The notes beneath the pieces were generated by a model. That model did not search any database. It was given only the letters and a program-made list of their open reading frames with translations, and was not told the origin of the DNA. Made by a program: the position numbers and the translations under genes. This document shows positions 1,786-12,151 of a stretch of DNA of 64,000 nucleotides, piece after piece. This DNA is from a virus (taxonomy: Duplodnaviria > Caudoviricetes): positions 32,001-96,000 of the IMG/VR virus record IMGVR_UViG_2910903598_000004, one strand, 5' to 3'. Within the stretch, counting starts at the first letter, position 1. Each line of letters begins with the position of its first letter.

Positions 1786-2714
1786 TATCTATTCTCCTTT
1801 TCTACAATTTTGATATTTCCTGTTTTTCGCTCATAATGATAAATGTTATAGCTTAGTTGATTGTCTTCTGAAACTATAATATCATTAGCTGCACCTAACA
1901 TTTCTTTTACATCATGAATGGAACAATCGTCGGGTAACACGATGCATTTATGTATAGATGACGGAATAATATAAAGATCTGAATGGAGTTTATTTGAAAG
2001 TTTCCATAGATTTTCCGTATAGAGAATTTCATTTGCTCCAAACAGCATATTTTCATTCGTAAGCATATACACCAGACGAGACTCTGCCTCTGGTGGATAC
2101 ATAATATCTACAAACGCTCTTGGTGCTCCCGCCATGAAGAGATACTCACGAGCAACATCATCAAGTAACGCAATTTTTGTCTTCATAATATGTTGACTCA
2201 TTGCCTTTAGATACAAATCCTTTTCACTCCAATCAAGGGCTTCCATAAGTTCGTTATTAACAATCCCTGTTTCAAATCCCTGATCTGTTTCTTCGCATAC
2301 TATACGATATATTATTGCAAGATCAAGAAATTGCCGATGTGGAACATGTTGAAGCATTTCTTTTGACTCTTCCATATTTACTAATTGAATAAATACTTTA
2401 GCTGTTTCTTTTGAGAGTTTTTCTTCTTTTTCTCTTCGATCTTCATGAAGAAAATACGCTTTTACCTGCTTAATAATTGTATCCAATGTATATGGAAAAT
2501 CATAATATGGAAGATAAATCTCATACAATTGCTGTATATTAATCACAATTCCTTTATCTTCTCCTTTTCTGGAGATTTTGATCCCATCCATCATTCTGTT
2601 TGTACATACTAGCTTAGAAAAACTTATCTCTAGTCCTGCTAACTCATTTTTTGATGCTTTTGGCAATTCTTTTTCTAATTCCAATTTGAATTCTTCATAG
2701 TTCATTATTTTCAT
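1785..2714 (-). CDS. DUF5688-family protein
   Basis: LVN.E...E.L..VPH..FLDLAIIY, MLTN....FGA, DLYIIPSSIH, LS..IYHY motifs. Confidence 0.8.
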   Translation of the reverse strand: MKIMNYEEFKLELEKELPKASKNELAGLEISFSKLVCTNRMMDGIKISRKGEDKGIVINIQQLYEIYLPYYDFPYTLDTIIKQVKAYFLHEDRREKEEKLSKETAKVFIQLVNMEESKEMLQHVPHRQFLDLAIIYRIVCEETDQGFETGIVNNELMEALDWSEKDLYLKAMSQHIMKTKIALLDDVAREYLFMAGAPRAFVDIMYPPEAESRLVYMLTNENMLFGANEILYTENLWKLSNKLHSDLYIIPSSIHKCIVLPDDCSIHDVKEMLGAANDIIVSEDNQLSYNIYHYERKTGNIKIVEKENR

Positions 2715-2727
2715 TATTTTCCCTCCT

Positions 2728-2880
2728 AAAAATAAAAAATGGCATAAAAATAAGCAGATATTTTATATCTACTCAATTTACACCATTTGGTTTATAAAAT
2801 TTCTATTTTTGTGTTTTCTAAAAAAAGTCACAGTTATATCGGTCTGTGAATCTAATAAAAATACATATTTATTATAACAT
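2728..2880 (-). promoter_or_regulatory. Repeated promoter/structured leader, copy 1 of 8
   Basis: TGTTATAAT; GTATTTTTATTAGATTCACAG-loop-CTGTGACTTTTT; terminal AGTAGATA..TATCTGCT hairpin plus T tract; RBS. Confidence 0.85.
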
Positions 2881-3119
2881 AAAATTTATATAAGAAAAAG
2901 AAGCAGTTAAACAATTTCTGCTTAACCACTTCTTTTCTGCAATCGCCCCAACCTGGAAAATTGAGCGATCATTTTAAATCGTAAATATATCAGGTAACCA
3001 TTATATCGGTAATACCTTTTCTATTACCAGAATATCATTTCAGTCTTTTCATGTCAATGTTTGAATCACATACTACTTTATGTTATTCAATTTTTTAGTT
3101 TTAATATTGATCTAAACTG

Positions 3120-3400
3120 TTAGATACTATTAATGCTATATGCACTTCTAGGTGTCACAATTAATGCATTATAAATATTCTTTTCCATAATACAATCTGA
3201 TCTATCTTTAGCTCCATTTCCTGTGTTATAACGTGGTATTTTTAAAAGTATAAGATCTTCTTTATAATATGTAGGTTTATTACGATATTCAATAATTCCA
3301 ACAAATTCTGAAGGTACACAAAGATAATTAACATCAAAACAAAAATTCATACCACAACCAGATTTAAAATCACCTAATTGATTTCTTTTGTTAATTGCAT
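3120..3400 (-). pseudogene. Frameshifted small hypothetical gene
   Basis: GGAGG-led ATG at 3400 (MQLTKEIN*) stops early; the downstream frame (LGDFKSGCGMNFCFD...) continues to 3120. Confidence 0.5.
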
Positions 3401-3442
3401 ATGTTGCCTCCTGTTCGTGATTCTACACATGTTTTTTCTCAT

Positions 3443-3721
3443 TTATACCTTATATTTTGCAACTGCATCTTCCCAGTTAGCTATGGTACAAACCTTGTCT
3501 ATTTCCTCTGCAATGCGTTCTATTTGCTTAGAAGAAACACAAGGAGTGTTTTTAAAAGCTCTACCTATTGCTAATTTAACATCATCTAAGGTTTTATTTT
3601 TTTTGAGTTTTAAATTATGCCTCCTTAATAAATTCGGCAATTTCTTTTCGCAAACATTACCGTAATTAACAAACCATTCTACCCATAATGCTTCTGCGAA
3701 TATTTCTTGTGGTAATCTCAT
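3443..3721 (-). CDS. Hypothetical protein
   Basis: 92 aa ORF with GAGG RBS. Confidence 0.7.
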   Translation of the reverse strand: MRLPQEIFAEALWVEWFVNYGNVCEKKLPNLLRRHNLKLKKNKTLDDVKLAIGRAFKNTPCVSSKQIERIAEEIDKVCTIANWEDAVAKYKV

Positions 3722-3988
3722 TTTGCACCTCTCAATTCACTTTTGAAAATTCTGCTTCTATAAGAACAATGTACTTTGGCTGTATGAACAATAGTCTCGT
3801 TTCTTTTATTTCTGTTTTAAAAAATATTTCATACGTTTTGTTCTTTCACTTTCTGACATAATGTCTCCTTTCTATATCTATAATCATCAATAGGTTTTCT
3901 TCCTGCCATTATAAACTCCTTTTATTCAATATTGATGGTACAAAAAACAAACAGCAATTTCTGTCTGTTTTTTGTACTATAAATTTTC

Positions 3989-8322: not shown

Positions 8323-8869
8323 TTTCTTCCTCACTTTCTGCCTTAACAGCCTTCTTAATCTCTGAAAATCCGTCAAAGAAAGCATTATCAAATATATCTA
8401 ATACAATTTCTGCTTTAGGTTTTAAACAATAATGCCCAAAATTCAAATTTTGAATTTTTTCATTCCAGCTTGTCCAGACAGCATATTCCCCTGTTTTTTT
8501 CTGTACCGCTGAAATCATATATAAATGAGCATCTTGTAGAAGATTGCTTTGTCTTGCAACACTGATTAACTCATAGTTCGGCAGCATTTTTTTGAAATAT
8601 GCATTGATATTTTTTCGTACTTTGTAGCTAACCTCTAAGGTTCTCCATGTACTCATTACCAGATCTTCCGTATACATTAATATGCGGTTTTCATCACTGT
8701 TAATGTCATGGAATTCTCCATTTTTGTCATAAAACTTAATGATTATGGAACCCTTATATTGTCCTCCTACATCTTCAATGGAAGCAAGCTGTGAAGTGAT
8801 CGTATCAATCTGCATAACTTCTCCATCTACTGTTAAAATGTCGCTTGGTTTTAATTCTAAATTCTTCAT
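8315..8869 (-). CDS. Hypothetical protein
   Basis: 184 aa ORF, AAGGAG RBS, coupled to neighbours; YAVWTSWN....LN.GHY motif. Confidence 0.75.
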   Translation of the reverse strand: MKNLELKPSDILTVDGEVMQIDTITSQLASIEDVGGQYKGSIIIKFYDKNGEFHDINSDENRILMYTEDLVMSTWRTLEVSYKVRKNINAYFKKMLPNYELISVARQSNLLQDAHLYMISAVQKKTGEYAVWTSWNEKIQNLNFGHYCLKPKAEIVLDIFDNAFFDGFSEIKKAVKAESEEEND

Positions 8870-9186
8870 AATTTCTCCTTTTCGCTATCGTCGCAGTATG
8901 TATCAAATGTATTATTGATAGTTTGATGCAGTTCGACCAAAGCATTGTTTATTTTTTCTTTGTATGTTTGTTCTGCAGTATCAATGCGTTTCTGGATTTC
9001 TTCGCCCTTTTCTTTGGTCGTGATAAACAGCGGTTTAAACTCGTATCCGGTATAACCTTCTACTGTGATACGATTATTTTTTGTGATGCTTTTGATGTTT
9101 CCACCAAGAATGAATGGCGCACTGTCATATTTCCAAAATCCATACAATGGTTTGTATGGATCGATGCAACTCATATCGATTTTCAT
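8866..9186 (-). CDS. Hypothetical protein
   Basis: Likely start ATGAAA at 9186; the upstream extension in the ORF track is IS-derived. Confidence 0.7.
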   Translation of the reverse strand: MKIDMSCIDPYKPLYGFWKYDSAPFILGGNIKSITKNNRITVEGYTGYEFKPLFITTKEKGEEIQKRIDTAEQTYKEKINNALVELHQTINNTFDTYCDDSEKEKL

Positions 9187-9461
9187 AAAAAATAACCTTT
9201 GGCAAGCCAAGTGCGGAAACCCCATTCCTTCAGGTGTGGGGAGGAGCACTCTAACGGCTATGCCATTTCCTTTCTTTGTTCTGTTAGATAACCACGAGGA
9301 GTTTCAAAAAATTGGATTTTTTTATAACTCAGGCTACCTTTGTTTACTTTTTCTTTTTTGTGAACTTGATCACATAACGCAGATGTAATACATCTGTAAT
9401 ATAGCCTTCGCCAATAACTTTTGTCACAAGCCACAGACCTTTACAGTCTGTGGTTATTGAC
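9187..9461 (-). mobile_element. Internally deleted IscB-type (IS200/IS605, OMEGA) mini-element
   Basis: GTCAATAACCACAGACTGTAAAGGTCTGTGGCTT left-end hairpin; ATTGGCGAAGG omegaRNA-like 3' piece; coding remnant EKVNKGSLSYKKIQFFETPRGYLTEQRKEMA* resembling IscB C-termini; right-end hairpin GTGCTCCTCCCCACACCTGAAGGAATGGGGTTTCCGCAC. Confidence 0.75.
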
Positions 9462-9484
9462 GGTATACACACCCATCCTTTCTG

Positions 9485-9641
9485 AAAATAAAAAAGGGCA
9501 TAAAAAAAACAGACAATAGATATCTGCTTAAATTTATACCCTTATGGTTTAAAGTTCTGTTTTATTATATATTCTTAAAAAAAGTCCTATTTATCCTATT
9601 ATGGACGAGGAATCTAATAAAAATACATTTGTATTATACCA
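9485..9641 (-). promoter_or_regulatory. Repeated promoter/structured leader, copy 2 of 8
   Basis: TGGTATAAT; GTATTTTTATTAGATTCCT..AGGACTTTTT; GGGTATAAA..GCAGATA..TGTCTG..TTTATGCCC plus T tract. Confidence 0.85.
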
Positions 9642-9703
9642 TATATATTTGCAAAAAAAAAGAGGCAGACGCATAAAAATACACGTCTGCTTCTTAATCT
9701 TCC

Positions 9704-12151
9704 CTATCGTTTTGATGGGTTTGTCTTGAACATTTTAACAACGCTGTCATACATAGCTTTTCCATACTTGTCTGTATTAGTTTTCATAGATGCAGCTTCG
9801 GATTTGTTGGAGATAAATCCAAACTCTGTCAAAGTAGATGCAGTTTTTGTATGACGTAATACAGCTAATCCAGTACGATCTACCAGTCCTCTGTTCGTAA
9901 ATCCTGTTGCTGCCTTTGTAAAGTTATGTACATTAGCTGCCCACTTATAGGATGTAACTCCATTGGATGCTTTATATCCTTGAGAATTGTATAACGTCTC
10001 TGAACCTTTTGCTGTTGCTCCTGCAGAGTTGATGTGGCAACTAAGGAAGTAATCAGCTCCAACGTTGTTTGCCAGATCACTTCGATCTGTCAAAGATGGA
10101 TAAGTATCAGTGGTTCTTGTGTAATACACTGCATAATTCTTATCCTTATCAAATTGTTTCTTTGCTGCTAAAACAATGCTTAATGTAAGGTCCTTTTCTC
10201 TTAATCTATTTCCTGTTGCTCCAGAATCAGAACCACCATGTCCGGCATCTAAAACTAAGATATTTTTATACATTGTTTTTGGTGTTCCCCATTTGATGTA
10301 AGCATATCCATTGTCAAAAGAAACAGCATATCCACGATAAGAACTAGAGGCTTTTACATAGACATATGTTCTTTTTTTCGTAGAATTATATTTGACTGTA
10401 AATCCTGACATACTACTTTTTGCGTAGCGGTTTGAAGCATTATTAAAATGGCTTACATAATTGCCTGCACAAGACATGAATAATTGACGGCTAGTATACT
10501 TATCTTCAAGATAATAGCTTGTCACTCCGCTAGGTAACTTGATTCTTAAATCATAATTACTCTTAGAAGCTTTTACACGAGCGTTTGGTAATGTTCCCGT
10601 AACTGTATATTTTGTCGTTGTTGGCTTTGTCGCGGTAGTTGTAGTCGTTGGTTTGGCAGTTGTCGTTGTGGGTTTGGCTGTTGTAGTCGTTGTTTCAGGT
10701 TCTTTCACAAAAGCTGGTCTGTCATAGGTAAATGTATTAGAACATCCATCATATACAGATTTCATATTTTTCATATGTTCTGCAATTTCTTCTGCATAAG
10801 AAGGATTTGTTGAATATTGATGCCAGATATTATCCTTTTTCGGATTATATCTCATTTTGAATAGTGTATTCTGCTGATAAACGGTATTATGAATATAATT
10901 ATCAGCAACATACTGTGCAGCTCCATTTAATGCTTTGTCAACACTTGTCCATCCCATATAATACGCATAGGAAGAACCACAAAGCTGCGGATCACTGTCA
11001 TATGCCTTGATTCCATACAGATTATATACTGTTGTTTCCGGAATTGTTTTTGTAATATATTTTCCATTAACTTTCTGGAATCCTGTTACATTTCCATTGG
11101 CATCTTTTTTTACACTATCGCCTGTAATGACCTTCGTAATAGCTTTCTTACTTAATGCACTTGTTCCGTATGCAGATTCATTAATCGTCTGGGATACTAA
11201 GTACACTGGATCAATCTTTTCTTTTTTAGCAGCTGCAATGATTGCACTTGCTTTTCCTTTTAACACGCTGTTATTTTTATTTTGTAATAACTCATCCAGT
11301 TTTTTCGCAAATGCAGATTCATTTACATTATGATAAACATCAATTTTCATATACTGTTCATCATTTACTGTTGATGTAATTTTTTTCTGATATGCATTTT
11401 CATCAAACGTTTGATTGTTATACTTAGGAACAGCTTTGCTCTGTTCTTTCGCATACGCAGATGCTGTCATATCATAGGATGTTGTTACTTTTTTGTTTAC
11501 AACTTCCGGCTTAGTTTCTGTTGGTTTTGCCGTTGTTGTTGTGGGTTTCACTGCCGTTGTTGTAGGCTTCGTTGTAGCTGTAGTTGCATTATTAGAACCA
11601 CCTGACTGACTGGCCGCACTCATGCAGCCTGCACGTTTCGTAGCATTCCATTTATAGCTAATGCCTAAATTTTTGGCTGTCCATGATCCCGGCACCATAA
11701 TGTAATTAGTTTTGTTGCCGTAGTTATATACTTTTCGTGGAGCTGTAGACATTGTTGTTTTTTTGCCATTGATATAAGCAGTCTTACTATCGACTGTCAT
11801 TTTAATGGTTGTATTATATCTGCTTAATGTAAAAGTATCTCCACTGTTTTTATATAATACTTTGGGACCCTCCGCCTGTCCAAAAATCCAGTAGGCAGAA
11901 TACATTGCATTGGAATCCTCATCAATGTATCCAGGCATTTTTGTACCTAGAATCTTATCATTCCATCTTGCATCCACTGCACTCTTTTTATAAGTCTTAT
12001 TGTTATGCAGATACTTGACTTGTACTGTATCTCCAGCTTTGAAGGAATTTGCAGCATAAACCATGTTGACCCCTCCTCCAAATCCTGTTCCTAATGCAGT
12101 TACCAGACTCATTGCCATTGCCATGAATCGTTTACATGTTCCTTTTTTCAT
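9704..12151 (-). CDS. Secreted dual-domain peptidoglycan hydrolase (stalk/copper-amine-oxidase-N-like domain, GH73-like glucosaminidase, Amidase_3)
   Basis: Signal peptide; INESAYG, YNLYGI.AYD, NTL.KMRYNP..HQYST; LDAGHGG.D.GA..EK, SCHINS, TEFGFISN; Thr-rich linkers. Confidence 0.88.
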   Translation of the reverse strand: MKKGTCKRFMAMAMSLVTALGTGFGGGVNMVYAANSFKAGDTVQVKYLHNNKTYKKSAVDARWNDKILGTKMPGYIDEDSNAMYSAYWIFGQAEGPKVLYKNSGDTFTLSRYNTTIKMTVDSKTAYINGKKTTMSTAPRKVYNYGNKTNYIMVPGSWTAKNLGISYKWNATKRAGCMSAASQSGGSNNATTATTKPTTTAVKPTTTTAKPTETKPEVVNKKVTTSYDMTASAYAKEQSKAVPKYNNQTFDENAYQKKITSTVNDEQYMKIDVYHNVNESAFAKKLDELLQNKNNSVLKGKASAIIAAAKKEKIDPVYLVSQTINESAYGTSALSKKAITKVITGDSVKKDANGNVTGFQKVNGKYITKTIPETTVYNLYGIKAYDSDPQLCGSSYAYYMGWTSVDKALNGAAQYVADNYIHNTVYQQNTLFKMRYNPKKDNIWHQYSTNPSYAEEIAEHMKNMKSVYDGCSNTFTYDRPAFVKEPETTTTTAKPTTTTAKPTTTTTATKPTTTKYTVTGTLPNARVKASKSNYDLRIKLPSGVTSYYLEDKYTSRQLFMSCAGNYVSHFNNASNRYAKSSMSGFTVKYNSTKKRTYVYVKASSSYRGYAVSFDNGYAYIKWGTPKTMYKNILVLDAGHGGSDSGATGNRLREKDLTLSIVLAAKKQFDKDKNYAVYYTRTTDTYPSLTDRSDLANNVGADYFLSCHINSAGATAKGSETLYNSQGYKASNGVTSYKWAANVHNFTKAATGFTNRGLVDRTGLAVLRHTKTASTLTEFGFISNKSEAASMKTNTDKYGKAMYDSVVKMFKTNPSKR
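10612..10695 (-). repeat. Degenerate tandem repeat encoding the TTTTAKP linker (second tract ~11517-11590)
   Basis: ETTTTTAKPTTTTAKPTTTTTATKPTTTK in translation. Confidence 0.7.

What the first reader, a model, noticed from the sequence alone, without database searches (positions are those of the whole stretch)
9187..9461. Compact IscB mini-element retaining left end, omegaRNA 3' piece, iscB C-terminus and right end, inserted between an RBS and an ATGAA start
Seen: 275 bp between the SD of leader copy 2 (AGAAAGGATGG, ~9473-9483) and ATGAAA at 9186. Its parts match, in order, what I recall of IscB elements, implying at least two internal deletions. Its 3' end repeats the AGAAAGGA-hairpin-hairpin-TTATTT-ATG layout of the split-RBS elements, linking the two classes. 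Established: IscB elements lie next to their TAM, and ATGA- and ATAAA-type TAMs are reported for some IscBs. Inference: this lineage targets start codons (junctions here: ATGAA x3, ATGAG, ATAAA) and limits damage by carrying an outward-facing SD in its last codons.
Basis: partly seen in the sequence, partly recalled or inferred. Interest (0 to 1): 0.7.

Follow-up and report, generated by a model that had tools for sequence, protein, structure and literature searches.

The report
Decayed IscB transposon before a start codon
A 275-base leftover of an RNA-guided (IscB) transposon sits exactly between a phage gene's ribosome-binding site and its ATG; it is an ordinary decayed member of a known transposon family whose known target motif, ATGAA, often coincides with gene starts.

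Summary
Window 9187-9461 (minus strand) matches a full-length 1,615-nt IscB/omegaRNA (HEARO) element from gut metagenomes (L022, L023/L064) in three collinear blocks at 94-98% identity. The blocks are the first 46 nt of the omegaRNA with the end hairpin, the last 62 nt of the omegaRNA region, and the last 31 iscB codons plus the 71-nt 3' tail. Two deletions (180 nt and 1,160 nt), each at a 4-5 nt microhomology, removed the RNA core and nearly all of iscB. The record has no IscB and no TnpA, and Rfam's HEARO model no longer detects the remnant. I read it as a dead relic that could at most be moved in trans.

It lies between the Shine-Dalgarno sequence of leader copy 2 and ATGAAA of a 106-aa gene. 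Among 40 independent full-length relatives, 38 abut ATG and 25 abut ATGAA. In 33 the ATG opens an ORF (null 30%), and 17 also have a Shine-Dalgarno sequence in the 5' flank (null 7%).

The target (N|ATGA; TAM TTCAT) and gene-less derivatives are published, and this scan has met the pattern before, including in this window. The idea of a replacement Shine-Dalgarno is only weakly supported.

The parts
9187..9461 (-). Whole mini-element (275 nt), an internally deleted IscB/omegaRNA transposon
   Evidence: Three collinear blocks at 94-98% identity to the 1,615-nt elements L022 2202-3816 and L023/L064.
9473..9483 (-). Native Shine-Dalgarno sequence of leader copy 2 (AGAAAGGATGG), now 286 nt from the ATG
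   Evidence: Sequence and comparison of the leader copies. Anti-SD duplex -8.3 kcal/mol.
9462..9477 (-). The 16 nt of 5' flank that an intact omegaRNA would carry as its guide
   Evidence: Inferred from the position just 5' of HEARO model position 1, which is the transposon end, and from the IscB guide architecture described by Meers 2023.
9416..9461 (-). OmegaRNA 5' piece and transposon end, with the subterminal hairpin CCACAGAC/GTCTGTGG at 9453-9431
   Evidence: 45/46 identical to L022 2202-2247, where Rfam HEARO starts at 2202.
9354..9415 (-). OmegaRNA 3' piece: the last ~20 nt of the HEARO model plus two downstream hairpins. The iscB SD is mutated.
   Evidence: 59/62 identical to L022 2428-2489. 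Also 78-81% identical to the same region of L006, L027 and L029.
9258..9353 (-). iscB C-terminal remnant: 31 codons plus the TAG stop
   Evidence: 93% identity to the C-termini of IscB proteins P0001 and P0003 (PF14239, PF01844).
9268..9275 (-). SD-like AGAAAGGA inside the last iscB codons (R-K-E), 3 nt before the hairpin foot
   Evidence: AGAAAGG is nearly invariant in 13 related ends. GAAAGGAGG-type codons are kept across the family.
9201..9264 (-). Composite imperfect hairpin of the 3' transposon end, spanning the iscB stop codon
   Evidence: RNAalifold on 13 ends: 18 pairs, of which 9 show compensatory double changes. The single-sequence fold agrees.
9196..9200 (-). RE-proximal weak SD-like AAAGG, 9 nt before the ATG
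   Evidence: Sequence. Duplex energy -3.9 kcal/mol. RAGG(T) is kept in 12 of 13 related ends.
9182..9186 (-). ATGAA: the target/TAM of the element and the start codon (Met-Lys) of the downstream gene
   Evidence: Three independent insertions of near-identical elements share ATGAA and diverge after it. 25 of 40 relatives have ATGAA. TTCAT is the published TAM of GstIscB.
8866..9186 (-). Downstream gene, 106 aa, with no Pfam match
   Evidence: ORF list; Pfam scan.

Best explanation
A full-length (~1.6 kb) non-autonomous IscB/omegaRNA transposon of the IS200/IS605 superfamily (an ISC element) once inserted into the 5' leader of this phage-like element. The insertion was immediately 5' of ATGAA, which is both the element's target/TAM and the Met-Lys start of a 106-aa gene. 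It therefore landed between the gene's Shine-Dalgarno sequence plus spacer and its ATG, in the gene's orientation.

Two later deletions, each between 4-5 nt direct repeats, removed 180 nt of the omegaRNA core and 1,160 nt holding the iscB SD and codons 1-383. The 275 nt that remain keep both hairpin-bearing transposon ends, two omegaRNA fragments and 31 iscB codons. The copy has no nuclease and no usable guide RNA scaffold. It is a relic that a Y1 (TnpA) transposase could at most move in trans.

What is shown: the homology, the deletion map, the site, and the family-wide ATGA(A)/start-codon association. What is inferred: the order of events, the slippage mechanism, loss of omegaRNA function, and that the downstream gene is now translated from the weak AAAGG in the transposon end, probably less well than before.
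For: - Homology: three collinear blocks at 94-98% identity to full-length elements at unrelated loci.
- Remnant peptide: 93% identical to IscB C-termini. The L022 protein has RRXRR at 224 bits plus HNH.
- RNA: all 40 full-length relatives tested carry HEARO at 97-155 bits, starting at the same boundary. The mini gives no HEARO hit even at E<=10.
- Record content: no RRXRR and no Y1_Tnp in the 120-kb record.
- Deletion junctions: microhomologies A(C/T)TGG and AAAGT.
- Insertion sites: three independent sites of near-identical elements all read SD-spacer|element|ATGAA.
- Tally over 40 independent sites: 38 ATG and 25 ATGAA. The ATG opens an ORF of at least 43 codons in 33 (null 30%, p 8e-12). 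ORF plus SD in the 5' flank occurs in 17 (null 7%, p 9e-10).
- The 5' flanks are SD-like: median -5.5 against -2.2 kcal/mol, p 1e-8.
- Published: the N|ATGA target with empty sites (PMC4810608); TAM TTCAT of GstIscB and gene-less PATEs (bioRxiv 10.1101/2023.03.14.532601).
- The cellular genomes holding relatives all encode Y1 transposases. One IS200-type tnpA in Eubacterium oxidoreducens ends with the same hairpin plus GAAAGGATTTTATTT|ATGAAG.
Against: - No empty allele of this site was found. The downstream gene has no relative in IMG/VR, so the exact boundaries rest on comparing independent insertions and on published ISC biology.
- The RE boundary of singleton relatives was set by eye at the ATG, which favours the ATG tally. 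The three multi-member subfamilies fix it independently.
- Loss of omegaRNA function is inferred from the missing 180 nt and the lack of a covariance-model hit, not measured.
- Translation of the downstream gene is untested.
Confidence: 0.9

Rival explanations
1. The 275-nt unit is an active gene-less mini-transposon (PATE) that spreads in this deleted form, mobilised in trans by a host Y1 transposase.
For: Both ends are intact at 94-98% identity, with their hairpins. PATEs related to an IscB element are published. Y1 transposases are present in genomes holding relatives. A second, different mini-element lies at genome 15195-15417.
Against: A search for deletion junction 1 in 2.9 million viral contigs found no other copy. 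There were no matches in the phage or plasmid collections. It is a single copy in its own record. No tnpA is present in the record.
Confidence: 0.15
2. The relic has been exapted. The transposon end (conserved AGAAAGG, 64-nt hairpin, AAGG, A/T spacer) now acts as the gene's translation-initiation region or as a translational control element. This would be the first reader's 'damage-limiting SD'.
For: AGAAAGG and RAGG(T) flank the hairpin and are nearly invariant in 13 ends. Arg at the ERR motif is almost always AGG, although AGG makes up 21% of Arg codons in iscB bodies. RE ends are somewhat more SD-like than null (median -3.9 against -2.2 kcal/mol, p 0.003, not corrected for shared descent).
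Against: In this copy the RE-proximal motif is weak (-3.9, against -8.3 for the displaced SD). AGAAAGGA lies 82 nt from the ATG, and still about 15 nt away if the hairpin is discounted. In other subfamilies GGAGG(A) can pair with a downstream TCCTCC (read by eye from the sequences, not tested), so the conservation may be structural, for TnpA, and not ribosomal. Several subfamilies have no SD-like end.
Confidence: 0.2
3. The fragment still supplies a guide RNA to an IscB encoded elsewhere (a trans-acting mini omegaRNA).
For: It is transcribed from the leader promoter in the right orientation. The 5' end of the scaffold is intact and sits next to a 16-nt flank.
Against: 180 nt of the scaffold core (HEARO positions ~47-190) are missing. 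No HEARO match even at E<=10. No IscB in the record.
Confidence: 0.03
4. It is a native structured part of the leader and unrelated to transposons.
For: The region folds well (z -4.5).
Against: It is absent from the other seven leader copies. It is 94-98% identical to pieces of IscB elements at unrelated loci.
Confidence: 0.01

Closest known systems
ISGst5 / GstIscB of Geobacillus stearothermophilus and its gene-less PATE derivatives (Meers et al. 2023, bioRxiv 10.1101/2023.03.14.532601)
   Same: Non-autonomous IS200/IS605-type element with HEARO omegaRNA 5' of iscB. TAM is TTCAT, which reads ATGAA in iscB orientation. The guide is taken from the flank outside the end. There is an orientation bias towards the upstream gene, and protein-less derivatives keep only the ends.
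   Different: This copy is a doubly deleted relic that still keeps omegaRNA fragments and 31 iscB codons. It sits in a phage-like element of gut Firmicutes. It was seen at a single site only. Neither TnpA nor IscB is present in the record.
ISC transposons with the N|ATGA target (Kapitonov, Makarova & Koonin 2016, PMC4810608)
   Same: 5'-GT terminus, subterminal hairpins, no target duplication, insertion immediately 5' of ATGA verified there with empty sites, mostly non-autonomous.
   Different: That paper does not mention start codons (0 occurrences). Its ATGA families are from Cyanobacteria and Proteobacteria, whereas this clade is from Lachnospiraceae/Clostridia and their phages.
Full-length elements L022, L023 and L064 (gut metagenome contigs OLPN01001085.1, OLRS01000147.1, ERZ857785 NODE-258)
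   Same: 94-98% nucleotide identity over all retained parts. The insertion geometry is the same: SD-spacer|element|ATGAA(A/G).
   Different: They are 1,615 nt long, with a 414-aa IscB (RRXRR plus HNH) and a complete HEARO (122-126 bits).
RE-only 'split RBS' relics in the same window (32040-31950, 19423-19330) and the mini-element at genome 15195-15417
   Same: IscB-element remains placed directly before ATGAA-type starts of genes of the same record. The layout is the same: GAAAGGAGG-type codons, hairpins, A/T tail, ATG.
   Different: They derive from other IscB subfamilies (L041/L030-like) and have different deletion end points.

Membership tests
ISC / IscB transposon (IS200/IS605 superfamily) | iscB ORF with RuvC (RRXRR, PF14239) and HNH domains | tested here: not met
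   Only the last 31 codons remain (93% identical to IscB C-termini). No PF14239 anywhere in the record. The unit is a derivative, not an intact member.
ISC / IscB transposon (IS200/IS605 superfamily) | HEARO/omegaRNA 5' of iscB, starting at the transposon end | tested here: not met
   No RF02033 hit at gathering score or at E<=10. Only 46 nt plus 62 nt fragments remain, 95-98% identical to L022, whose HEARO scores 122.5 bits.
ISC / IscB transposon (IS200/IS605 superfamily) | Subterminal imperfect hairpins at both ends, 5'-GT terminus, no terminal inverted repeats, no target duplication | tested here: met
   GTCAAT terminus and hairpin at 9453-9431. The 3' composite hairpin at 9264-9201 has 9 of 18 covarying pairs. 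The flanks CC|...|ATG show no duplication.
ISC / IscB transposon (IS200/IS605 superfamily) | Insertion immediately 5' of the ATGA(A) target/TAM | tested here: met
   ATGAA at 9186-9182. The same holds for L022 and L023/L064, and for 25 of 40 relatives. Published target and TAM.
PATE (gene-less IS200/IS605 derivative mobilised in trans) | Multiple copies of the gene-less unit at different sites | tested here: not met
   One copy in the record. The junction pattern is absent from IMG/VR, and there is no match in phages or plasmids.
PATE (gene-less IS200/IS605 derivative mobilised in trans) | A cognate Y1 transposase available in the host | not testable with these tools
   The host genome is not identified. 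The record has no PF01797. Five cellular genomes holding relatives all have it.

The most novel reading that the evidence does not exclude
In this Firmicute and phage IscB clade, the 3' transposon end has evolved into a portable translation-initiation region: conserved AGAAAGG, a covarying hairpin, RAGG and an A/T spacer. With it the element can wedge precisely between a gene's SD and its ATGAA start at little cost, while the gene's own promoter transcribes the omegaRNA with the RBS region as guide. This would be start-codon homing as an adaptive strategy, not a by-product of the TAM.
Probability: 0.25. Interest if true: 0.55.

Novelty: new member of a known kind. Interest (0 to 1): 0.3.

Why it matters
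On its own the element is a dead transposon fragment and changes nothing about what is known of IscB. It is useful in three ways. It documents step by step how IscB elements decay, through microhomology deletions that spare both ends. It connects the intact elements to the puzzling 'SD-hairpin-ATG' units in the same phage-like genome. And it adds to the quantitative evidence that this IscB clade sits at start codons: 33 of 40 sites, and 17 of 40 with the native SD directly in front. The papers I could read give the target motif but do not discuss this consequence. For annotation, such relics explain long structured gaps between an RBS and a start codon.

Tried and rejected
- Rfam on the window found nothing for the mini, at gathering score or at E<=10 on 8900-9800.
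- blastn of the mini against the phage and plasmid collections gave no match.
- An exact right-end pattern in IMG/VR gave none. The junction-1 pattern in IMG/VR gave none.
- The left-end hairpin pattern gave one contig, L003, which led to the first HEARO hit.
- The search for relatives of the downstream 106-aa gene, to find an empty site, found none (the first try, used wrong coordinates).
The metagenome scan supplied L022, L023 and L064 instead.
- A single-deletion model with a frameshifted longer IscB remnant ('GEGYITDV...') was rejected, because that stretch aligns to the omegaRNA 3' end and not to iscB.
- Within-genome copy series in Eubacterium oxidoreducens and Butyrivibrio gave too few copies (1-3) for a clean tally.
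- The Weinberg 2009 HEARO paper and Altae-Tran 2021 are not held. My recollection that the former noted ATGA/GTGA next to HEARO elements is unverified.

Full report
**Setting.** The window is bases 32001-96000 of a 119,963-nt IMG/VR virus record. All genes around the finding lie on the minus strand. A promoter-leader unit is repeated about eight times. In most copies its Shine-Dalgarno sequence (SD) is followed within a few bases by a start codon. In copy 2 the SD AGAAAGGATGG (9483-9473) is followed by GTGTGTATACC. Then comes a 275-nt stretch that starts with GTCAATAACC at 9461 and ends with TTATTTTTT at 9187. ATGAAA at 9186 opens a 106-aa ORF with no Pfam match.

**What the 275 nt are.** Rfam finds nothing in the window at gathering score, and no HEARO match in 8900-9800 even at E<=10.
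- The left-end hairpin recurs at window 21504. It also recurs in an IMG/VR contig (L003), where the full region scores 87 bits for HEARO (RF02033), the omegaRNA of IscB.
- A 51-aa peptide that I read across the poly-A run of the element found four proteins. Only its last ~30 residues, VNKGSLSYKKIQFFETPRGYLTEQRKEMA plus stop, matched (59-61% of the query), at 81-93% identity to their C-termini. All four carry IscB-type Pfam domains: PF14239 (RRXRR), PF01844 (HNH) or both.
- Using the 414-aa P0003 as bait I fetched 86 loci from viral, genome and metagenome collections.
- Three metagenome loci (L022, L023, L064) hold a 1,615-nt element that matches the mini in three collinear blocks. Window 9461-9416 matches L022 2202-2247 (45/46). 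Window 9415-9354 matches 2428-2489 (59/62). Window 9353-9181 matches 3650-3822 (163/173), which runs 6 nt past the element into the shared ATGAAA.
- In L022, HEARO runs from 2202 to 2447 (122.5 bits). iscB runs from 2501 to 3745 and has RRXRR (224 bits) and HNH.

The mini therefore keeps four parts: the first 46 nt of the omegaRNA, which is also the transposon end; the last ~20 nt of the HEARO model plus two downstream hairpins; 31 iscB codons with the stop; and the 71-nt 3' tail. Two segments are missing. One is 180 nt of omegaRNA core. The other is 1,160 nt covering the iscB SD and codons 1-383.

Both junctions sit in short repeats of the parent, read by eye from the sequences: A(C/T)TGG, and AAAGT (the latter taking the K-V-N reading of the closer relative P0003). 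This pattern is what slippage or microhomology-mediated deletion leaves. That mechanism is my inference. I first considered one deletion plus a frameshifted longer IscB remnant. I rejected it because the stretch in question aligns to the omegaRNA 3' end and not to iscB.

**Is it alive?** The 120-kb record has no RRXRR protein and no Y1 transposase. The omegaRNA remnant is not recognised by the covariance model. No second copy with junction 1 exists in IMG/VR. There is also no match in the phage or plasmid collections. Both ends are intact, however.
- The 5' end has the hairpin at 9453-9431.
- The 3' end forms a composite hairpin (9264-9201) that spans the iscB stop codon. Compensatory changes support it in 9 of 18 pairs across 13 related ends.
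- The five cellular genomes that hold relatives all encode Y1 transposases.
- An IS200-type tnpA in Eubacterium oxidoreducens ends with the same kind of hairpin followed by GAAAGGATTTTATTT|ATGAAG.

Mobilisation in trans is therefore conceivable, but nothing shows it. I call this copy a relic.

**The site.** The three independent insertions of near-identical elements read as follows:
- L022: GAAAGGAGTTTTTGT|element|ATGAAACAT
- L023/L064: AGAAAGGTAGGTAAGTA|element|ATGAAGCAA
- Window: AGAAAGGATGGGTGTGTATACC|element|ATGAAAATC

Identity begins at GTCAAT and ends after ATGAA.

For 40 independent full-length relatives, HEARO (97-155 bits) gave the 5' boundary. I set the 3' boundary from subfamily comparisons or, for singletons, by eye. 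The first flank bases are ATG in 38, ATGA in 29 and ATGAA in 25.
- The ATG opens an ORF of at least 43 codons in 33 of 40, against 30% for all other ATGR in the same DNA (p 8e-12).
- An SD 4-mer also lies 7-17 nt upstream in the reconstructed empty site in 17 of 40, against 7% (p 9e-10).
- The 5' flanks pair with the anti-SD much better than null (median -5.5 against -2.2 kcal/mol, p 1e-8).
- About seven sites are not gene starts (for example L018, L052, L086). In several of the misses the element sits just before the SD of the next gene instead (L026, L034, L037; L020, which is outside the 40-site set, does the same).

Caveat: the by-eye boundaries of singletons favour ATG. The multi-member subfamilies do not depend on that.

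**Comparison with the literature.**
- Kapitonov et al. 2016 (PMC4810608) showed with empty sites that some ISC families have a 5'-GT terminus and insert at N|ATGA. The words 'start codon' do not occur in that paper.
- Meers et al. 2023 (bioRxiv 10.1101/2023.03.14.532601) measured TTCAT, the reverse complement of ATGAA, as the TAM of GstIscB (ISGst5). They described gene-less PATEs related to it. They also reported that IscB elements are biased to the orientation of the upstream gene, because the omegaRNA must be transcribed from outside.

The start-codon association follows from three things: a TAM that spells Met-Lys/Asn, the need for read-through transcription, and loss of disruptive insertions. 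The element is thus a new, decayed member of a known kind. The scan's notes record the same pattern in other genomes and in this window. I treated those notes as leads only and re-derived the tally here.

**The replacement-SD idea.** AGAAAGG in the last iscB codons is nearly invariant in the 13 closest ends. GAAAGGAGG-type codons recur across the family. The first Arg of the ERR motif is almost always AGG, although AGG is only 21% of Arg codons in the iscB bodies. So there is a nucleotide-level constraint.

In this copy, however, the motif lies 82 nt before the ATG, in front of the 64-nt hairpin. In other subfamilies, read by eye from the sequences, GGAGG(A) can pair with a downstream TCCTCC, which I did not test. 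A structural role in the transposon end explains the conservation at least as well.

Directly before the ATG the end carries RAGG(T) plus 7-10 A/T. In the mini this AAAGG (9200-9196) gives only -3.9 kcal/mol, against -8.3 for the displaced native SD. Over the family the ends are only modestly more SD-like than null (p 0.003, uncorrected for shared descent). I therefore rate the damage-limiting SD as possible but unshown. The gene behind the relic is probably translated less well than before.

**Other remains in the same record**.
- A second mini-element of another subfamily lies at genome 15195-15417, outside the window. It reads AGAAAGGAAAATTATT|GTCAATAACC...|ATGAAAAA.
- A 5' omegaRNA piece lies at window 21504-21410.
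- RE-only relics lie at 32040-31950 and 19423-19330. Their layout (GAAAGGAGG, hairpins, A/T tail, ATGAA) equals the 3' third of the present element.

**Verdict.** The start-codon bias is real but follows from a published target motif. The SD-carrying adaptation is not demonstrated.

Noticed in passing
G000 genome 15195-15417 (minus strand; 16.6 kb before the window start): A second IscB mini-element of a different subfamily (L030/L041-like), about 220 nt long. It has SD AGAAAGGAAAATTATT, then GTCAATAACC..., then GAAAGGAGGCTCGCC, hairpins and ATGAAAAA. HEARO scores 31 bits.
   Followed up: partly
window 32040-31950, 19423-19330 and 21504-21410 (minus strand): Two RE-only relics begin exactly at GAAAGGAGG, the IscB ERR codons. 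This suggests deletion between the gene's own SD and the SD-like codons of the element, which would form a direct repeat. The third locus is a 95-nt omegaRNA 5' piece whose first bases supply the TGA stop of the upstream 80-aa ORF.
   Followed up: partly
L003 6200-6567 (minus strand; IMGVR_UViG_3300029220_000218): A complete HEARO RNA (87 bits) with no iscB ORF behind it, followed by an end hairpin and ATGAAAAG. This is an omegaRNA-only derivative in another large viral contig.
   Followed up: no
window 2720-56373, eight copies (e.g. 9484-9700): A repeated unit of extended -10 promoter, structured leader and terminator-like hairpin with a T tract, directly before the SD of operon-first genes. 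The IscB relic sits inside copy 2.
   Followed up: no
P0002 (225 aa) versus P0003 (414 aa): A metagenome IscB with an in-frame internal deletion of about 190 residues (...TGYQ|GEQYFIF...). It shows that internal deletions are common in this lineage.
   Followed up: no
L054 and L056: Two full-length elements share an identical 30-nt 5' flank but have different 3' flanks after ATGAA. Possible causes are recombination between copies or a repeated upstream unit.
   Followed up: no
L096 1077-1560 (Eubacterium oxidoreducens DSM 3217): An IS200-type tnpA whose 3' end carries the same hairpin type and GAAAGGATTTTATTT|ATGAAG as the IscB elements. It is a candidate autonomous partner that shares the end and the target.
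   Followed up: partly
window 9186-9249 (minus strand): The frame of the downstream gene stays open for 21 codons back into the transposon end, from GTG at 9249, with an in-frame ATG at 9225. The same in-frame ATG, 13 codons upstream, occurs in L022 and L023. This is probably incidental.
   Followed up: no
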